A stretch of 32,000 bases of DNA from Bdellovibrionota bacterium (GTDB taxonomy: Bacteria; Bdellovibrionota_C; UBA2361; SZUA-149; CAZDWZ01), in NCBI GenBank assembly GCA_046328905.1, contig JAXLVP010000001.1, forward strand, positions 2,725,018-2,757,017, given 5' to 3'. Under the pieces are notes generated by a model, which did no database searches, was not told the origin of the DNA, and saw nothing but the letters and a program-made list of their open reading frames with translations. The position numbers and the translations under genes were made by a program. Shown here one piece after another: positions 13,335-17,551 of this stretch. How positions within the stretch are numbered: the first letter of the stretch is position 1; every line of letters starts with the position of its first letter.

Positions 13335-13634
13335 GATGTGCCTCCTTTCGCAGTCCTCATGTGAACGCGAACGTACCGCGTGTATTTTTGCGGATGGCAA
13401 AAGGCCCTCTTTCGTGCCGATATCCGCGAATACTTCCTCCTTTCATCGCATATTTCGGCAAATTTGGCGACGCTGTTGCCGATTATTCGAATCGCCGTTT
13501 ACGGTGACCATGCTGGCCAAGCCGTTGAAATTTGACATCGCTAGTTTCGAGTAGAGCTCTCGACCTTCCCTGAACGCATCGTCATGCGCTCAGGGGTGGA
13601 AAAGGCAAAGGTTTCGTTACGAAAGGTGTCCGTC

Positions 13635-14219
13635 ATGAACACGGTACAAAAATCAGAGGCTCCGGCGCTGACTCCGCAGCGGCCTCCTCATGTTTTGTTG
13701 GGGGTGACCGGCTCGACGGCGGCGTCGAAAGCGCAGGCAATCGCGCTCGCTTTGCTGCGAAGCGGTTGCGAAGTGCGTGCGGCGATGACCCCGAGCTCAC
13801 AGCAATTCATCCAACCGATGCTGCTCGCAAGCGTGCTGAAAGATCCTGTCTACAGCACGCTCTGGAGCCCGACTCAGGCCGGTGAAACCCATGTAGAGTG
13901 GGCACGCTGGGCGGACGCGATGGTCATTGCCCCGGCGACAGCGACGTGTATCGCCGACCTCTGGCTCGGCGCGTACAATAATCCTGTAACTCTCCTCGCT
14001 GCGAACGTTCCGCCGGACCGGCTGTTTATCGCTCCCGGAATGGCGCAACAGATGTGGGATCAGCCCGCAGTCCGGCGAAATGTAGCGCAGCTTACGGAGT
14101 GGGGCGTTCGGTTTCTCGGGCCCGTGACGGGCCGAGTTGCGTCCGGAGCCGAAGGGCAACGGCTGATGGAGCCTCGCGACATTGCGGCTGCTGTGTGTGA
14201 GCTCCGGTGCGAGCTTTGA
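13635..14219 (+). CDS. HFCD-family flavoprotein, CoaC-like (phosphopantothenoylcysteine decarboxylase-like), stand-alone
   Basis: 194 aa from ATG 13635 (AAAGGTG upstream). Motifs: VLLGVTGSTAASKA (FMN-binding fold), conserved His (ETHVEWARWAD) and PGMAQQMW. Two residues are atypical for a PPC decarboxylase (see findings), so I give no gene symbol. Confidence 0.75.
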   Translation: MNTVQKSEAPALTPQRPPHVLLGVTGSTAASKAQAIALALLRSGCEVRAAMTPSSQQFIQPMLLASVLKDPVYSTLWSPTQAGETHVEWARWADAMVIAPATATCIADLWLGAYNNPVTLLAANVPPDRLFIAPGMAQQMWDQPAVRRNVAQLTEWGVRFLGPVTGRVASGAEGQRLMEPRDIAAAVCELRCEL

Positions 14220-14270: not shown

Positions 14271-14411
14271 TCCTTTCCGCCCTAGAAGTCTTCCATCCGT
14301 CTGCGTTCGGCGGCTGAATGCCTACTCAGCATTCAGGTTCCGAAGGTTTCGGCGACACTCCCCGATCGGCGTACGATTCGGATGGGTCGCTCTCAGATGG
14401 AGGTTTTTGTC

Positions 14412-15221
14412 ATGTCCACTCGTAAAAGCGGTTGGCGTTCGGTAGTTACAGCGGGAAGCACGGTCGGTCGACTCGACACGCTGCGCGGTTCCGAGCAGAT
14501 AGAGTATCTTGCCGGCGAACCATTCGAACGGCGAATCGTGTTTGATTCGCAGAATCCGTTCAAAGGGAAGCTGGGCCTGTACATCGCGCAAGAGCTGTAT
14601 CGTCGCGGTGGGGATGTCGTTCTCATCGCTCGCAAGGACCTGCTCCTCGGTCAAAAAATCGAGCTTCCGGATGAATGTATCCGTCCCTTCTACACGTTCG
14701 ATGAGCTCGAGCGTGAGTTGCCGAAGACCCTGACCGAGACCGATCCTGACCTGGTCTTCATGGCCGCGGCGGTGTCGGACTACGTCCCGGTGTCAATTAA
14801 TGAAGTCTCGGATGCCGAGCGCGAAGGAAAGATCTCCAGCTCGCTGCCGGAGCTCAACGTTCGATATCGTGCGACGCCGAAGCTCATCGACGGAATTCGG
14901 CCGAAGATCCACCCGGTTTCTTCGCTCGTGGGGTTCAAGTTGGTCGTCGGCCTCAGCGAAGCCGCGATGCGCGAGGCTGCACTCACGCAAATGGCGCGAG
15001 CACATTCCAATTTTTGCGTCGTGAACGACTTCCGAGAGATTTCCGCCGATGGCTCCGTGCATCCGCTCAGAGTGTTCTTCCGCTCCGGCCACATGGAGAA
15101 GCTGGTCGGCACAAAGGCGGAGGTCGCACGTCAGCTCGTCGAGCTCGTCGACAACGACTTGGAAGACACCTACATGCAGGTGGGAGGACGCGGTTCTGAC
15201 GCGGCAACGGGTCCCGCGTAA
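14412..15221 (+). CDS. CoaB-like phosphopantothenate--cysteine ligase, stand-alone
   Basis: 269 aa from ATG 14412 (GGAGG 8 nt upstream). Motifs: VVTAGST..RLDTLR, KGKLG, AAAVSDY, GKISS and LVGFKL. A ~16-aa insertion interrupts the N-terminal nucleotide-binding motif. Confidence 0.75.
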   Translation: MSTRKSGWRSVVTAGSTVGRLDTLRGSEQIEYLAGEPFERRIVFDSQNPFKGKLGLYIAQELYRRGGDVVLIARKDLLLGQKIELPDECIRPFYTFDELERELPKTLTETDPDLVFMAAAVSDYVPVSINEVSDAEREGKISSSLPELNVRYRATPKLIDGIRPKIHPVSSLVGFKLVVGLSEAAMREAALTQMARAHSNFCVVNDFREISADGSVHPLRVFFRSGHMEKLVGTKAEVARQLVELVDNDLEDTYMQVGGRGSDAATGPA

Positions 15222-15339: not shown

Positions 15340-16641
15340 ATGAACACCAAAGGCAATTCGGTGTTGGTTGTAAAGTTAGGCACCATTGAGCTCCCTGATT
15401 CAGTGCTCGCGGTCGCTCGGAAGCTGGGTGAGGCAGTCGTTATTGATGTGGCAAACATCGAGGCCCACCGCAACGGCTACGATTATGCAGTGCTCTTCGG
15501 AGACCCGGCACGGCTCGACGCCATCGACGCAGTGCTCGCACTCAAACCCGCACGCCCATTCTTCATCTGGTGGACGTGCGAAGAGCTTCGGGGCGCGGAC
15601 CTGCAGAGGTTGACTCAACGGCTTCGATTGAATGTCCTGATCTCCGCCAATGGTCAGAAGGGCGTCTCTCTGACAACACCGGAGGGCGGATTCATTCAAT
15701 TCGGGACGGAGATTGAAAAGCTGTGCGAGTTCCTCGAGCGGAGAAGAGCCGTCTCATGGTTCCGGACAGAGTCCGACGTGAGCCTCGTCTCCCCGGTTCC
15801 GCTCGAAGCGCGAGAGAAGGCCGACGAGCTGCTCCGATTTGCACATTCGACCCGGCTGCTGTGCAATCTCAATGGAAATGTCGCCGTTCGGCTCCAGCCG
15901 ACGCGCGCCGGCGCTACGAGCTTTCTCGTCTCTCCGCGTGGAGTGAACAAGGCCGCGCTCTTGGCGGCAGATTTGCTCAAAGTGGCGGTCGATATCGAGA
16001 ATCGCGTGGTTCGTTGCCCAGACATCAGCCGGAAATCGTCAATCGACACGGGTGTTCTCGGAACCCTGTTCTCACGATATCCGGAGCTCGCGTTTGTGCT
16101 GCATTTCCATCCGACGGAGGCGATTGTGCTCCCGGTTGCAAACACCGATTTTCCGTTCCCGTGCGGTACTCTGGAAGAGGCACAGGAGCTTGGTCGAGCG
16201 ATCGACCGCTCCGAGCGTGACAGCTTCCTGATTGAGATGGTCCACCACGGATTTCTTCTTGGTGGCACTGAGGCATTCCGGGGGCGCTTGCTCGCGGAAT
16301 GGGCCGAGACGCAAGATGAGTATGCAGATCATCTTCGAGAGATCGACGAATTCGATAAGCTCGCTGAATCGGTGCAGAACCCGATCTTCGTCGGCACCAA
16401 ACTCCTCGGAGTGCTCAATATGCACCGCGACGGCTGGGGGTCAATTTACGTGCGAAAAGCCGAGCGCGGGCGAAAGCTCGGTGCTCAGCTTGCGAGCATT
16501 GCGGCGAATCGTGGCCTGACGATTGGCGCGCACGATCTGTGTCGAGTTGCTGCGTTCTATCGGCGACTCGGTTGGCAGGAAAGCGGACGTGACGGTCGGA
16601 TGACGTACTTCGCTCCTCCTCCGGTTGCTCGACACGGTTGA
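15340..16641 (+). CDS. Three-part fusion protein: unknown N-domain, class II aldolase/adducin-like domain and a short GNAT-like C-terminus
   Basis: 433 aa (GAAAGG SD). Aldolase-II-like core at aa ~157-312: GNVAVRL, FLVSPRGV, SSID, VLHFHP and MVHHGFLLGG, so the His triad is retained. C-terminal GNAT motif A-like segment: IYVRKAERGRKLGAQLA...AFYRRLGW. Residues 1-150 are unassigned. Confidence 0.7.
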   Translation: MNTKGNSVLVVKLGTIELPDSVLAVARKLGEAVVIDVANIEAHRNGYDYAVLFGDPARLDAIDAVLALKPARPFFIWWTCEELRGADLQRLTQRLRLNVLISANGQKGVSLTTPEGGFIQFGTEIEKLCEFLERRRAVSWFRTESDVSLVSPVPLEAREKADELLRFAHSTRLLCNLNGNVAVRLQPTRAGATSFLVSPRGVNKAALLAADLLKVAVDIENRVVRCPDISRKSSIDTGVLGTLFSRYPELAFVLHFHPTEAIVLPVANTDFPFPCGTLEEAQELGRAIDRSERDSFLIEMVHHGFLLGGTEAFRGRLLAEWAETQDEYADHLREIDEFDKLAESVQNPIFVGTKLLGVLNMHRDGWGSIYVRKAERGRKLGAQLASIAANRGLTIGAHDLCRVAAFYRRLGWQESGRDGRMTYFAPPPVARHG

Positions 16642-16774
16642 TGAAATGATCCAGCGGCGTGGGCGGCGCTTTATCCGTCCACATTCCTTTTTTCAACGGC
16701 GAACAGAGACTGGTCAGCGAACCCCATTCGCTGACCACCGTTTCCCTATTCAGGTTTTCCAGAAAGGAACTGCC

Positions 16775-17551
16775 ATGTGTCTGTCATTCGTGGTGCGCGA
16801 TCGTATCCCCGACTTGCCGCTCCTCCTTCTTTTCAACCGGGACGAGACGTATGCTCGTCCGGCAGAACCCCTCCACCGCTGGCCGGATGAAACCCCAGCC
16901 ATCTTCGCCGGGCGGGACGGTGAGATGGGTGGAACCTGGGCCGGAACCAATGCGGAGGGCTATTTTGCGATGCTGCTCTTTGTTCGGGAGCCGCGCAGGG
17001 AAGTTACTCACAGCAGGCGTCGGGGTGAGATCGTTCCCGATTTTCTCCGACGCAAGAGTGAACCGGACGCGTTCGTGCATGAGATGAGCAGTCGGGCGAA
17101 TGAGTACCTGCACTTCAACTTGATCGCTGGTCGAGTGGGCAATGTGCTCCATTACTCCAACCGAACCGATGAGGCGACCCCGCTCGGCCACGGTGTCCAT
17201 GGCATCTCGAATGGAGATCTCGGCGAACCGTGGTTCAAAGTGCTGCGCGGAACTGAAGCAATCGAGCGCCAGCTCGAGAGCGCTCCGCTTGATTTTGAGG
17301 GCTACTTCAGGATTTTGAACGACAGGGAAGAGGCGCCACCGGAAGAGGTTCAACACACAGGCCTTCCCTTCGACTACGAACGAATCCGCTCCCCGCTCTT
17401 TGTCATGACACCGACATACGGCACTCGAACCAGCACGGTAGTTGCGTTCCGACGGTCAGGCGAGGTTCTGCTCGAAGAGCGAAGCTACGATTCGGGCGGC
17501 AGACGCTTCCATACCGTGCGCATGGCGGTTGGAGTAGGTAAGGATGCATGA
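16775..17551 (+). CDS. NRDE-family protein (DUF833; TANGO2 homolog family)
   Basis: 258 aa from ATG 16775 (AAAGGA upstream). The N-terminal MCLSF and the family signature LLLFNRDE are present. The track ORF is over-extended at its 5' end. Confidence 0.82.
   Translation: MCLSFVVRDRIPDLPLLLLFNRDETYARPAEPLHRWPDETPAIFAGRDGEMGGTWAGTNAEGYFAMLLFVREPRREVTHSRRRGEIVPDFLRRKSEPDAFVHEMSSRANEYLHFNLIAGRVGNVLHYSNRTDEATPLGHGVHGISNGDLGEPWFKVLRGTEAIERQLESAPLDFEGYFRILNDREEAPPEEVQHTGLPFDYERIRSPLFVMTPTYGTRTSTVVAFRRSGEVLLEERSYDSGGRRFHTVRMAVGVGKDA

What the first reader, a model, noticed from the sequence alone, without database searches (positions are those of the whole stretch)
15340..16641. Unusual three-module fusion: unknown N-domain, class II aldolase-like domain with an intact metal triad, and a minimal GNAT
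Residues ~157-312 (nt ~15808-16275) carry the class II aldolase/adducin hallmarks in order: GNVAVRL, FLVSPRG, SSID, HFH (H255/H257) and VHHGFLLGG. A Zn/Fe site and activity are therefore plausible. The last ~90 residues carry a GNAT motif A-like segment (RGRKLGA) and AFYRRLGW, but look too short for a full GNAT fold. Residues 1-150 match nothing I recognise. I do not know of a described aldolase-II/GNAT fusion. Joining a carbon-carbon lyase, epimerase or dehydratase fold to an acyl-CoA transferase suggests a two-step modification of a phosphosugar or thio-sugar type substrate, given that the MtnB and FucA families act on such compounds.
Basis: partly seen in the sequence, partly recalled or inferred. 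Interest (0 to 1): 0.6.

Follow-up and report, generated by a model that had tools for sequence, protein, structure and literature searches.

The report
Trimmed CoaB-aldolase-GNAT fusion enzyme
This gene is a cut-down member of an unstudied family that joins a coenzyme-A-type ligase, a metal-binding aldolase-like domain and a small acetyl-CoA-type domain; here the ligase part has decayed and a separate ligase gene next door replaces it, in a cluster that also holds a bacterial relative of the human disease gene TANGO2.

Summary
ORF 15340-16641 (+) encodes a 433-aa, three-domain protein; the model has pLDDT 92.

- The central domain is a true class II aldolase fold. The Asp and three His metal ligands are invariant in 67 relatives.
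- The C-terminus is a truncated GNAT core that lacks the N-terminal arm.
- The "unknown" N-domain is a decayed CoaB (phosphopantothenate-cysteine ligase type) domain.

The protein belongs to an undescribed family of about 195 clusters at 50% identity, found mainly in Patescibacteria and sporadically in Bdellovibrionota. The usual architecture is CoaB-aldolase II-GNAT, with Nudix in about half.

Forms without an intact CoaB domain arose at least 7 times. All 6 short-form loci examined have a stand-alone CoaB-like gene alongside, and 5 have TANGO2. None of 11 long-form loci has either.

The genome keeps a normal CoaBC elsewhere, and small CPR genomes with the family lack the rest of the CoA pathway. 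So this is not housekeeping CoA synthesis.

My best reading is a metal-dependent, CoA-binding partner of a paralogous CoaB/CoaC/TANGO2 pathway acting on a phosphorylated acid-cysteine amide. The substrate is untested.

The scan met long forms of this family before in three other genomes.

The parts
15340..16641 (+). Whole ORF, 433 aa (P0001): short-form member of the CoaB-aldolase II-GNAT(-Nudix) family
   Evidence: AAAGG Shine-Dalgarno-like sequence 7-11 nt upstream of the ATG.
15340..15774 (+). N-domain, residues 1-145: decayed CoaB (DFP) domain. It is a compact 5-stranded alpha/beta domain that lacks the CoaB nucleotide and substrate motifs.
   Evidence: It aligns to the DFP domain of long relatives, with about 100 residues deleted. 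An HMM of fused CoaB domains matches only the tail (positions 182-227, 24 bits). Best structural matches are CoaB/PPCS (2gk4 Z 10.6, 6tgv 10.5, 5int 10.3, 1p9o 9.3), but CheY-like folds score nearly as high. No Pfam DFP hit.
15676..15690 (+). TPEGG motif (residues 113-117). It is conserved in long and short forms (T113, P114, E115, G116 invariant in the 12-sequence alignment) but absent from canonical and stand-alone CoaB. Likely the junction between the CoaB tail and the aldolase domain.
15775..16344 (+). Class II aldolase/adducin-fold domain, residues 146-335, including the long C-terminal helix 311-334
16045..16047 (+). D236 codon: acidic metal ligand, equivalent to AraD Asp76
   Evidence: Invariant in 67 sequences. 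KPS(I/S)DT aligns in register with AraD.
16102..16110 (+). H255-F-H257: first two His metal ligands, equivalent to AraD His95/His97
16246..16248 (+). H303 codon (the HHG motif): third His ligand
   Evidence: Invariant. It aligns to the (N/H)HG motif of fuculose-phosphate aldolases.
16162..16164 (+). C275 codon in the family-specific FP(Y/F)PCGT.EEA motif: an invariant cysteine of unknown role
16345..16638 (+). Truncated GNAT core, residues 336-433 (beta-beta-beta-alpha-beta-alpha-beta-beta). The GNAT N-terminal arm (beta1-alpha1-alpha2) is missing.
16465..16482 (+). GNAT motif A region, RGRKLG (residues 376-381). The family consensus is RGxGxG; P0001 has Lys where the nearly invariant middle Gly sits.
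14382..15221 (+). Stand-alone CoaB-like ligase gene, a paralog and not the housekeeping enzyme. It keeps the CoaB motifs and carries an insertion of about 20 residues. Presumed functional partner of P0001.
13584..14219 (+). CoaC-like flavoprotein gene (paralog). The Asn of PxMNxxMW and the Cys of ACG are both replaced; the His is retained.
16775..17551 (+). TANGO2/NRDE homolog, 258 aa, starting Met-Cys
   Evidence: Human TANGO2 has a cysteine Ntn-hydrolase fold (PMC13044924).
12366..13400 (-). Divergently transcribed tandem Lrp/AsnC regulator, conserved next to the cassette in other genomes
16659..16692 (+). Terminator-like hairpin plus T-run in the 133-bp spacer between the fusion gene and TANGO2
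   Evidence: consensus scan only; the total found is close to the shuffled expectation

Best explanation
P0001 is a short-form member of an uncharacterised enzyme family. The ancestral architecture was CoaB-type ligase, class II aldolase fold, truncated GNAT and often Nudix.

Shown:
- The central domain is a class II aldolase fold. Its Asp + 3 His metal site and part of the anion/phosphate pocket are intact and invariant, and it is closest to L-ribulose-5-phosphate 4-epimerase.
- The C-terminus is a GNAT core (beta4-alpha3 pyrophosphate loop, beta5-alpha4) without the acceptor-binding N-terminal arm.
- The N-domain is a dead remnant of CoaB.
- Wherever the fused CoaB has decayed, a stand-alone CoaB-like gene sits in the same gene string, usually with TANGO2 and often with a CoaC-like flavoprotein.
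- The system is separate from housekeeping CoA synthesis.

Inferred:
- The stand-alone CoaB-like ligase activates a phosphorylated, pantothenate-like carboxylic acid with CTP and joins it to cysteine or a similar amine.
- P0001 docks on that ligase through its CoaB remnant.
- P0001 binds the phospho-hydroxy-carbonyl end of the substrate or product at the metal site, for an epimerase, aldolase, decarboxylase or oxygenase-type step.
- The GNAT core holds a CoA or acyl-CoA moiety, either as co-substrate or as effector.
- The CoaC-like flavoprotein and TANGO2 (an Ntn amidohydrolase fold) act on the cysteine-derived amide downstream.

The substrate and the reaction type are not known.
For: Domain identities.

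Family and architecture:
- 195 clusters in the exhaustive search.
- Of 67 aligned members, Aldolase_II is found in 66, DFP in 55, NUDIX in 33 and GNAT models in 25.
- Invariant columns G179, N180, P199, K204, S234, D236, H255, H257, C275, G276, H303, G304, G357.

Decayed CoaB.

Complementarity:
- Short forms (window, L001, L032, L014/L030, L029, L031): 6 of 6 have a stand-alone CoaB-like gene; 5 of 6 have TANGO2.
- Long forms: 0 of 11 have either.
- Short forms are polyphyletic, with at least 7 changes forced by well-supported branches. The coupling was therefore re-established repeatedly.
- The cassette's CoaB-like proteins score higher against the fused-domain profile than housekeeping CoaBC does: 139-188 against 83-117 bits, and 108 against 59 bits in this genome.

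Not housekeeping:
- The genome's own CoaBC scores 402 bits elsewhere.
- CPR genomes with the family lack CoaC, CoaD and CoaE above the cut-offs.
- All parts score far below the equivalog cut-offs.

Altered CoaC chemistry.

TANGO2 as a Cys-Ntn hydrolase fold: PMC13044924.
Against: - No substrate, metal or binding data exist; the chemistry is inferred from folds and neighbours only.
- The GNAT is truncated, and in P0001 the nearly invariant middle glycine of motif A is Lys. CoA binding may therefore be weak or lost in this clade.
- The cassette of regulator, CoaB-like, CoaC-like and TANGO2 genes occurs without any aldolase-GNAT gene in 5 genomes. Long forms occur without CoaC-like genes or TANGO2. 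So the aldolase-GNAT module is dispensable for the cassette, and the cassette for the module.
- In L009 the flavoprotein next to a long form looks like a canonical CoaC, and in L007 PanB lies directly upstream. Some long forms may therefore serve ordinary CoA synthesis.
- The N-domain fold match to CoaB is only marginally better than to generic CheY-like domains.
- Docking of the remnant on the stand-alone ligase is untested.
- Context counts rest on 17 loci, many on short contigs.
Confidence: 0.5

Rival explanations
1. Non-catalytic sensor or regulatory subunit. The aldolase-like and GNAT-like domains only bind a phosphometabolite and CoA/acyl-CoA, and they tune the activity of the CoaB-like ligase (feedback control) without performing a reaction.
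For: - The GNAT lacks the N-terminal arm that normally forms the acceptor site.
- Motif A is degenerate in the P0001 clade: RGRKLG, RGRSRG, RGRGRA.
- The dead CoaB remnant is retained, as expected of a docking domain.
- The module is optional for the cassette.
Against: - All four metal ligands, the GN and KxS pocket residues and a family-specific Cys are strictly invariant across 67 divergent members at 23% mean column identity. That is more typical of catalysis, although binding alone could also conserve them.
- Known non-catalytic members of this fold are scaffolds such as adducin; their metal-ligand status was not examined here.
Confidence: 0.2
2. Accessory part of ordinary coenzyme A biosynthesis. 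The family's CoaB is the cell's real phosphopantothenate-cysteine ligase, and the extra domains modulate that essential pathway.
For: - The CoaB motifs are intact in long forms.
- PanB lies directly upstream in L007.
- A canonical-looking CoaC follows the long form in L009.
- Earlier scan reports on long forms read them this way.
Against: - This genome and the Oligoflexia MAG both have a full-scoring CoaBC elsewhere: 402 and 449 bits.
- Three CPR genomes with the family have no CoaC, CoaD or CoaE above the cut-offs.
- P0001's own CoaB domain is dead.
- The cluster's CoaC-like protein lacks the Asn and Cys needed for the normal reaction.
- All parts score far below the equivalog cut-offs.
Confidence: 0.1
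3. One reading: a self-contained bifunctional enzyme that converts a phosphosugar or thiosugar (aldolase, epimerase or dehydratase step) and then N-acylates it from acyl-CoA, independent of the neighbouring genes.
For: - The closest sequence relative of the aldolase domain is AraD, at E 3.7e-14.
- TrmB-family regulators sit beside 7 loci.
- A PRPP-synthetase-like gene and a HAD hydrolase are neighbours in L010 and L008.
Against: - Complete complementarity with CoaB-type ligases, fused or adjacent (17 of 17 loci), shows the module does not work alone.
- The GNAT lacks its acceptor arm.
- The AraD phosphate-pocket residues Lys42 and Ser44 are replaced by Ser/Thr and Arg.
Confidence: 0.1
4. Iron-dependent oxygenase variant. 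The aldolase-fold domain binds Fe(II) like NovR, TqaM or pyruvic oxime dioxygenase and oxidises the thiol or enethiol product of the CoaB-like and CoaC-like steps.
For: - The top Foldseek hits are the non-haem iron enzymes TqaM, NovR and pyruvic oxime dioxygenase.
- The class II aldolase fold is known to host Fe(II) dioxygenase chemistry (PMC5216522, title and abstract as listed).
- The cluster's CoaC-like protein lacks the Cys that reduces the enethiol intermediate, so a reactive sulfur intermediate is plausible.
Against: - Foldseek E-values for zinc aldolases are within one order of magnitude, and VIA ranks the aldolases first.
- By sequence the domain is closest to AraD.
- Long forms occur in genomes without any CoaC-like gene.
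Confidence: 0.1

Closest known systems
L-ribulose-5-phosphate 4-epimerase AraD (PDB 1jdi) and L-fuculose-1-phosphate aldolase FucA (1fua, 2opi): class II aldolase/adducin superfamily, PF00596
   Same: - Same fold (Z 11.4-12.8).
- GNVS, KPS.DT, H.H and (H/N)HG motifs in register, giving an Asp + 3 His metal site.
- Asn of the phosphate pocket retained.
   Different: - Only the first half of the Pfam model aligns.
- The second half is shorter and carries a family-specific FPYPCGT.EEA motif with an invariant Cys.
- AraD Lys42 and Ser44 are replaced, and an invariant Lys204 is added.
- The domain is embedded between a CoaB(-remnant) domain and a GNAT core.
- Substrate unknown.
Monofunctional (type III) phosphopantothenate-cysteine ligase CoaB, e.g. 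Streptococcus pneumoniae 2gk4, and the CoaB half of CoaBC (6tgv, 5int)
   Same: - The N-domain is homologous to the DFP domain of long family members.
- Its best structural matches are CoaB/PPCS.
- Long forms keep the GGT.E.ID.VR, N.S.G, AAAVSDY, GKI.S and ND motifs.
   Different: - In P0001 about 100 residues and all of these motifs are gone, so it cannot be a ligase.
- Even the intact fused and stand-alone paralogs score far below the CoaB equivalog cut-offs.
- They occur alongside a normal CoaBC, or in genomes without the CoA pathway.
Small GNAT acetyltransferases (e.g. E. coli YjaB 2kcw, S. aureus SACOL1063 5jph, P. aeruginosa 1xeb)
   Same: The beta-alpha-beta core with the motif A loop (family consensus RGxGxG) and the motif B FY...G(W/F) segment. 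All top 50 fold hits are GNATs.
   Different: - About 95 residues instead of 140-170.
- No beta1-alpha1-alpha2 arm.
- Below Pfam thresholds.
- A nearly invariant Cys (C401) within the beta5-alpha4 (motif B) segment.
- P0001 has Lys at the middle Gly of motif A.
Last two steps of mycothiol synthesis: MshC (cysteine ligase) plus MshD (GNAT). Comparison from my own knowledge, as an analogy only.
   Same: A cysteine-adding ligase coupled with a GNAT-type domain in the making of a thiol amide.
   Different: MshC is a CysRS paralog, not CoaB-type. There is no aldolase-fold domain. No homology was tested or claimed here.
Non-haem iron enzymes with the class II aldolase fold (NovR 9ryg, TqaM 9m09, pyruvic oxime dioxygenase 8il8)
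   Same: They are the top Foldseek matches, at E 2e-7 to 1e-6. The pyruvic oxime dioxygenase paper (PMC5216522, title and abstract listed) describes it as a non-haem Fe(II) enzyme homologous to class II aldolases.
   Different: Sequence identity is only 16-17%. The family keeps the AraD-like acidic ligand and phosphate-pocket Asn. Metal identity is unknown.

Membership tests
Class II aldolase/adducin superfamily (PF00596) | Pfam model above the gathering score | tested here: met
   36.3 bits against 22.2, although only profile positions 15-102 of 183 align. 66 of 67 relatives also hit.
Class II aldolase/adducin superfamily (PF00596) | Characteristic alpha/beta fold | tested here: met
   Model pLDDT 92. 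VIA Z 12.8 to 2opi and 11.4 to AraD. Foldseek probability 1.00.
Class II aldolase/adducin superfamily (PF00596) | Metal site: one acidic residue plus three His | tested here: met
   D236, H255, H257 and H303 are invariant. They align with AraD Asp76, His95, His97 and with the (N/H)HG His of fuculose-phosphate aldolases.
Class II aldolase/adducin superfamily (PF00596) | Phosphate-binding pocket (GN, K/T-x-S/G, SS) | tested here: inconclusive
   N180 and S234 are kept. The AraD Lys42 and Ser44 positions are Ser198 and Arg200. The second Ser is Ile235. An extra invariant Lys204 is present. An anion site is likely, but its specificity is unknown.
Class II aldolase/adducin superfamily (PF00596) | Catalytic acid/base residues from the neighbouring subunit (FucA Tyr113', AraD Asp120'/Tyr229') and a tetrameric assembly | not testable with these tools
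   This region is replaced by the family-specific FPYPCGT.EEA motif. No multimer model or coordinates were available.
GNAT acetyltransferases (PF00583/PF13508 clan) | Pfam model above the gathering score | tested here: not met
   Acetyltransf_7 scores 23.0 against 27; Acetyltransf_1 scores 14.6 against 20.7.
GNAT acetyltransferases (PF00583/PF13508 clan) | Complete GNAT fold (beta1-alpha1-alpha2-beta2-4-alpha3-beta5-alpha4-beta6) | tested here: not met
   Only the part from beta2/3 onward is present. TM by target is 0.35-0.45 and profile hits cover chain positions about 50-130.
GNAT acetyltransferases (PF00583/PF13508 clan) | Motif A, Q/R-x-x-G-x-G/A (pyrophosphate-binding loop) | tested here: inconclusive
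   The family consensus RGxGxG has R and both G nearly invariant. P0001 reads RGRKLG, with Lys at the middle Gly.
GNAT acetyltransferases (PF00583/PF13508 clan) | Acyl-CoA binding and acyl transfer | not testable with these tools
   Needs biochemistry.
CoaB / phosphopantothenate-cysteine ligase (PF04127, TIGR00521, TIGR02114) | DFP model hit and the nucleotide/substrate motifs (GGT.E.ID.VR, N.SSG, AAVxDY, KIKK-type Lys) | tested here: not met
   P0001 has no DFP hit and the motifs are absent. Only the C-terminal tail is recognisable. Long relatives do meet this feature.
CoaB / phosphopantothenate-cysteine ligase (PF04127, TIGR00521, TIGR02114) | Rossmann-like CoaB fold | tested here: inconclusive
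   The best hits are CoaB/PPCS at Z 9.3-10.6, but CheY-like and B12-binding domains reach Z 9-10.
Undescribed CoaB-aldolase II-GNAT(-Nudix) fusion family (seen earlier by this scan in 3 other genomes) | Homology across the aldolase-GNAT core, with the family-invariant residues | tested here: met
   E 1e-63 to 1e-30 to 57 clusters. All 13 invariant columns are present. P0001 nests inside the family tree.
Undescribed CoaB-aldolase II-GNAT(-Nudix) fusion family (seen earlier by this scan in 3 other genomes) | Intact fused CoaB domain | tested here: not met
   P0001 is a short form. A stand-alone CoaB-like gene at 14382-15221 takes the place of the fused domain.

The most novel reading that the evidence does not exclude
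The aldolase-GNAT protein, the CoaB-like ligase, the altered CoaC-like flavoprotein and TANGO2 together form an undescribed bacterial pathway. It builds, modifies and cleaves a pantetheine-like (phospho-acid)-cysteine/cysteamine amide, with TANGO2 as the amidohydrolase or acyl-transferase acting on that amide. If so, the bacterial cluster would give the first concrete substrate class to test for TANGO2. TANGO2's molecular function in humans is disputed, and its deficiency is reported to respond to vitamin B5, the CoA precursor.
Probability: 0.15. Interest if true: 0.85.

Novelty: new variant of a known kind. Interest (0 to 1): 0.58.

Why it matters
All three folds are well known. Their combination is not described in any paper I could find, and the family has no informative functional name in the sources checked.

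- It recurs in more than 100 sequence clusters. These include ~1-Mb Patescibacteria genomes that lack CoA synthesis, so it probably marks an unrecognised piece of small-molecule (thiol or CoA-like) metabolism.
- The repeated decay of the fused ligase domain, each time with a separate ligase gene alongside, is a clean natural experiment. It shows that the ligase and the aldolase-GNAT module work together.
- The short forms are tied to bacterial TANGO2 in at least three independent lineages. That offers a tractable bacterial system for a human disease gene of disputed function.

Tried and rejected
- The search for related loci with the 67-sequence alignment failed because no stretch was conserved enough. 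It worked with 12 sequences.
- The word-indexed homolog search found only 3 relatives and badly understated the family. The exhaustive search corrected this.
- The CoaB-domain tree was unresolved at depth, with long canonical branches, so I rely on profile scores rather than topology for the affinity of the stand-alone ligases.
- PADLOC: no defence-system link.
- NCBIfam: the Nudix domains are generic MutT-like with no subfamily above cut-off, so they give no substrate clue.
- The Atlas feature search gave nothing usable.
- Phage searches gave only CoaB-like hits and a weak Lak-megaphage aldolase didomain without GNAT.
- Seven literature searches found no description of the architecture or of a TANGO2-CoaB/CoaC gene cluster.
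- Model coordinates are not exposed. I could not test whether C275, C401, H331 and H398 cluster in 3D, nor how the GNAT groove faces the metal site.

Considered and rejected: that short forms are gene-calling artefacts of long genes. The window ORF has an upstream stop and its own Shine-Dalgarno-like sequence. The N-domain folds as a complete compact domain. Each short-form locus carries a separate ligase gene.
Full report
**1. The observation**

ORF 15340-16641 (+) is open and encodes 433 residues.

Pfam finds Aldolase_II above its gathering score: 36.3 against 22.2 bits, residues 173-267. The GNAT models fall just below theirs: Acetyltransf_7 scores 23.0 against 27, residues 357-414. NCBIfam gives only weak hits to MtnB and AraD models, far below their cut-offs.

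An AlphaFold2 model built on a 67-sequence family alignment is confident (mean pLDDT 92.1, pTM 0.90). It shows three packed domains: a 5-stranded alpha/beta domain (about residues 1-140), the aldolase fold (about 146-335) and a small beta-alpha module (338-427).

**2. The three modules**

*Aldolase domain.*
- Foldseek and VIA-align both place it in the class II aldolase/adducin fold. FucA 2opi scores Z 12.8 and AraD 1jdi Z 11.4. The non-haem-iron members TqaM, NovR and pyruvic oxime dioxygenase appear at E about 2e-7.
- A profile of the family's aldolase domain is closest to AraD, at E 3.7e-14. GNVS, KPS(I/S)DT and H.H are in register, so D236 maps to Asp76 and H255/H257 to His95/His97. The HHG motif aligns with the (N/H)HG third-His motif of fuculose-phosphate aldolases.
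- These four residues are invariant in 67 members whose mean column identity is 23%. So are G179, N180, P199, K204, S234 and the family-specific C275-G276.
- The metal site is therefore intact and under strong constraint. The phosphate pocket is only partly AraD-like.

*C-terminal module.*
- A profile of this module hits almost only GNATs in the PDB, best E 8.8e-4. The alignments cover only the beta3/4-alpha3-beta5-alpha4 part.
- The isolated model has pLDDT 93. Its top 50 Foldseek matches are all GNATs, with TM 0.45-0.63 by query but 0.35-0.45 by target.
- It is a GNAT core without the beta1-alpha1-alpha2 arm.
- The family's motif A is RGxGxG. P0001 reads RGRKLG.

*N-domain.*
- It has no Pfam hit. 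In alignments with relatives it lines up with their DFP (CoaB) domain, minus about 100 internal residues and minus all CoaB motifs.
- An HMM of fused CoaB domains recognises only its tail.
- Its best structural matches are CoaB/PPCS structures (Z 9.3-10.6). Generic CheY-like domains score nearly as high.
- Homology therefore rests mainly on the family alignment. The N-domain is a decayed CoaB domain.

**3. The family**

The word-indexed search found 3 relatives. The exhaustive search found 195 clusters at E<=1e-3 and 57 at E<=1e-30, mostly 500-680 aa long.

Of 67 aligned members, 66 have Aldolase_II, 55 have DFP, 33 have NUDIX and 25 hit a GNAT model. The usual architecture is CoaB-aldolase II-GNAT, with a C-terminal MutT-like Nudix in about half. 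That Nudix fits no specific subfamily.

Named genomes with the family are Patescibacteria (including Saccharibacteria and Uhrbacteria) and one Oligoflexia MAG. That MAG appears to be the genome labelled "same class" as the window's genome, because the hit falls on the same contig number and coordinates. In the window's own phylum only 2 of 124 species genomes carry the aldolase-GNAT part.

Sources name the proteins only "class II aldolase/adducin" or "MutT". Seven literature searches found no description. This scan had already met long forms in three other genomes. I reached the family independently, before reading those notes.

**4. Context and the key test**

In the window the gene lies in a same-strand string:
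- CoaC-like flavoprotein, 13584-14219
- CoaB-like ligase, 14382-15221
- P0001, 15340-16641
- TANGO2, with its true start Met-Cys at 16775

A divergent tandem Lrp/AsnC regulator lies upstream. The genome has a full-scoring CoaBC elsewhere (402 bits), so these are paralogs.

I then compared 17 loci.
- All 6 loci with a short form (window, L001, L032, L014/L030, L029, L031) have a stand-alone CoaB-like gene in the same string. Five have TANGO2; the sixth contig ends first.
- None of the 11 loci with an intact fused CoaB has either.

A maximum-likelihood tree of the shared aldolase-GNAT core shows the short forms are polyphyletic. Well-supported branches force at least 7 changes. P0001 and its two nearest relatives nest among long, Nudix-bearing forms. 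The fused ligase domain has therefore decayed repeatedly. In each of the six short-form loci examined, which fall in at least four separate places on that tree, a separate ligase gene lies alongside. This is strong comparative evidence that the aldolase-GNAT module needs a CoaB-type ligase.

The stand-alone ligases differ between lineages. The Bdellovibrionota cassette type carries an insertion of about 20 residues, and the CPR type does not. All keep the CoaB motifs.

The cassette of regulator, CoaB-like, CoaC-like and TANGO2 genes also exists without any aldolase-GNAT gene in five genomes of the phylum. The module is therefore an optional add-on there.

**5. Not housekeeping CoA synthesis**

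- The window's genome has a normal CoaBC elsewhere, and so does the Oligoflexia MAG (449 bits).
- Three ~1-Mb CPR genomes with the family have no other CoaB, no CoaC half, no TANGO2, and no CoaD or CoaE above the cut-offs. MAG incompleteness is a caveat.
- The cassette's CoaC-like proteins have lost the Asn of PxMNxxMW and the Cys of ACG, while keeping the His. From my own knowledge of the HFCD family, loss of that Cys is associated with oxidative decarboxylation that stops at the enethiol.
- Exceptions: the flavoprotein next to the long form in L009 keeps both residues, and PanB precedes the long form in L007. Some long forms may still touch ordinary CoA metabolism.

**6. How it most likely works**

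*Shown:* an intact metal centre with an anion pocket in an AraD-like fold, a GNAT core of the acyl-CoA-binding type, a dead CoaB remnant, and obligate pairing with a CoaB-type ligase.

*Inferred:*
- The ligase cytidylylates a phosphorylated, pantothenate-like acid and joins it to cysteine.
- P0001 docks on the ligase through its remnant domain. CoaB enzymes are dimers (from my own knowledge).
- P0001 handles the phospho-hydroxy-carbonyl end of the molecule at the metal, while the GNAT core binds a CoA-type moiety.
- The CoaC-like flavoprotein and TANGO2 then process the cysteine-derived amide. TANGO2 has a cysteine Ntn-hydrolase fold according to PMC13044924.

I put about 0.9 on the identity and evolutionary reading, and about 0.3-0.4 on this mechanism. 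The combined statement gets 0.5. The rivals are a pure sensor subunit, an accessory of normal CoA synthesis, a self-contained phosphosugar enzyme and an iron oxygenase. Each is listed with its test.

**7. Verdict**

The finding is real and the domain calls are right. The protein is a derived short form of an undescribed but recurrent multi-domain family built from known folds, so I rate it a new variant of a known kind.

Its main value lies in two results: the natural complementation pattern, and the repeated link of short forms to bacterial TANGO2.

Interest 0.58. The most novel reading is a pantetheine-like thiol-amide pathway that would give TANGO2 a testable substrate class. I give it about 0.15 probability and high interest if true.

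Noticed in passing
L019, L020, L022, L023, L024 (genomes G044, G030, G015, G016, G011 of the same phylum): A compact cassette of divergent tandem Lrp/AsnC regulator, CoaB-like, CoaC-like and TANGO2 genes occurs without any aldolase-GNAT gene. Identities to the window's proteins are 35-61%. This link between bacterial TANGO2 and CoaB/CoaC paralogs does not appear in the papers I searched.
   Followed up: partly
window 13584-14219; L001:6888-7463; L032:1704-2270; L022:2113-2721: The cassette's CoaC-like flavoproteins have Ala or Ser in place of the Asn of PxMNxxMW, and Ser in place of the Cys of ACG. The catalytic His is invariant. The flavoprotein beside the long form in L009 keeps both residues.
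   Followed up: partly
window 16625-17551: The mechanical ORF starts at TTG 16625 and overlaps the fusion gene. The Pfam match and a Met-Cys start put the real TANGO2 start at 16775. That leaves a 133-bp spacer with a terminator-like hairpin at 16659-16682 and a palindrome at 16711-16737.
   Followed up: partly
window 14382-15221; L001:5999-6754; L022:1360-2109: Stand-alone CoaB-like ligases of the Bdellovibrionota cassette carry an insertion of about 20 residues between the D..R motif and the N.FKG.G motif. Stand-alone ligases beside CPR short forms lack it.
   Followed up: partly
L033:3581-4735 (Prevotella phage Lak-B5, MK250024.1): Lak megaphages encode a 384-aa protein with an N-terminal domain of about 200 residues plus a full Aldolase_II domain and no GNAT. 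It is weakly similar to P0001 residues 122-307. The Atlas lists a 57-member viral cluster with DFP + Aldolase_II.
   Followed up: partly
AlphaFold DB clusters D2VZL8 (1118 aa) and A0A5R9NZ68 (591 aa): Proteins annotated only as methyltransferase-domain proteins share the N-domain + aldolase didomain with P0001 (query residues 1-336, TM by query 0.47-0.51). The didomain therefore occurs in other architectures too.
   Followed up: no
L028:805-2826 (G093) and L027:709-2190 (G088): Unusually long ORFs (674 and 494 aa) contain both CoaC-like and CoaB-like parts plus extra sequence. The L028 ORF sits next to a tandem Lrp regulator 46% identical to the window's.
   Followed up: no
L007:5102-5962; L010:7620-8612; L008:4419-5492; L031:38-703: Neighbours of family members elsewhere are PanB directly upstream (L007), a PRPP-synthetase-like gene downstream (L010), a HAD hydrolase upstream (L008), and a separate Nudix gene directly upstream of a short form (L031).
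   Followed up: no
L002, L003, L009, L011, L014/L030, L015, L016: A divergently transcribed TrmB-family regulator (38-63% identical among loci) sits beside the fusion gene in seven loci, mostly Patescibacteria. It takes the place of the Lrp-type regulator seen in the window's phylum.
   Followed up: no
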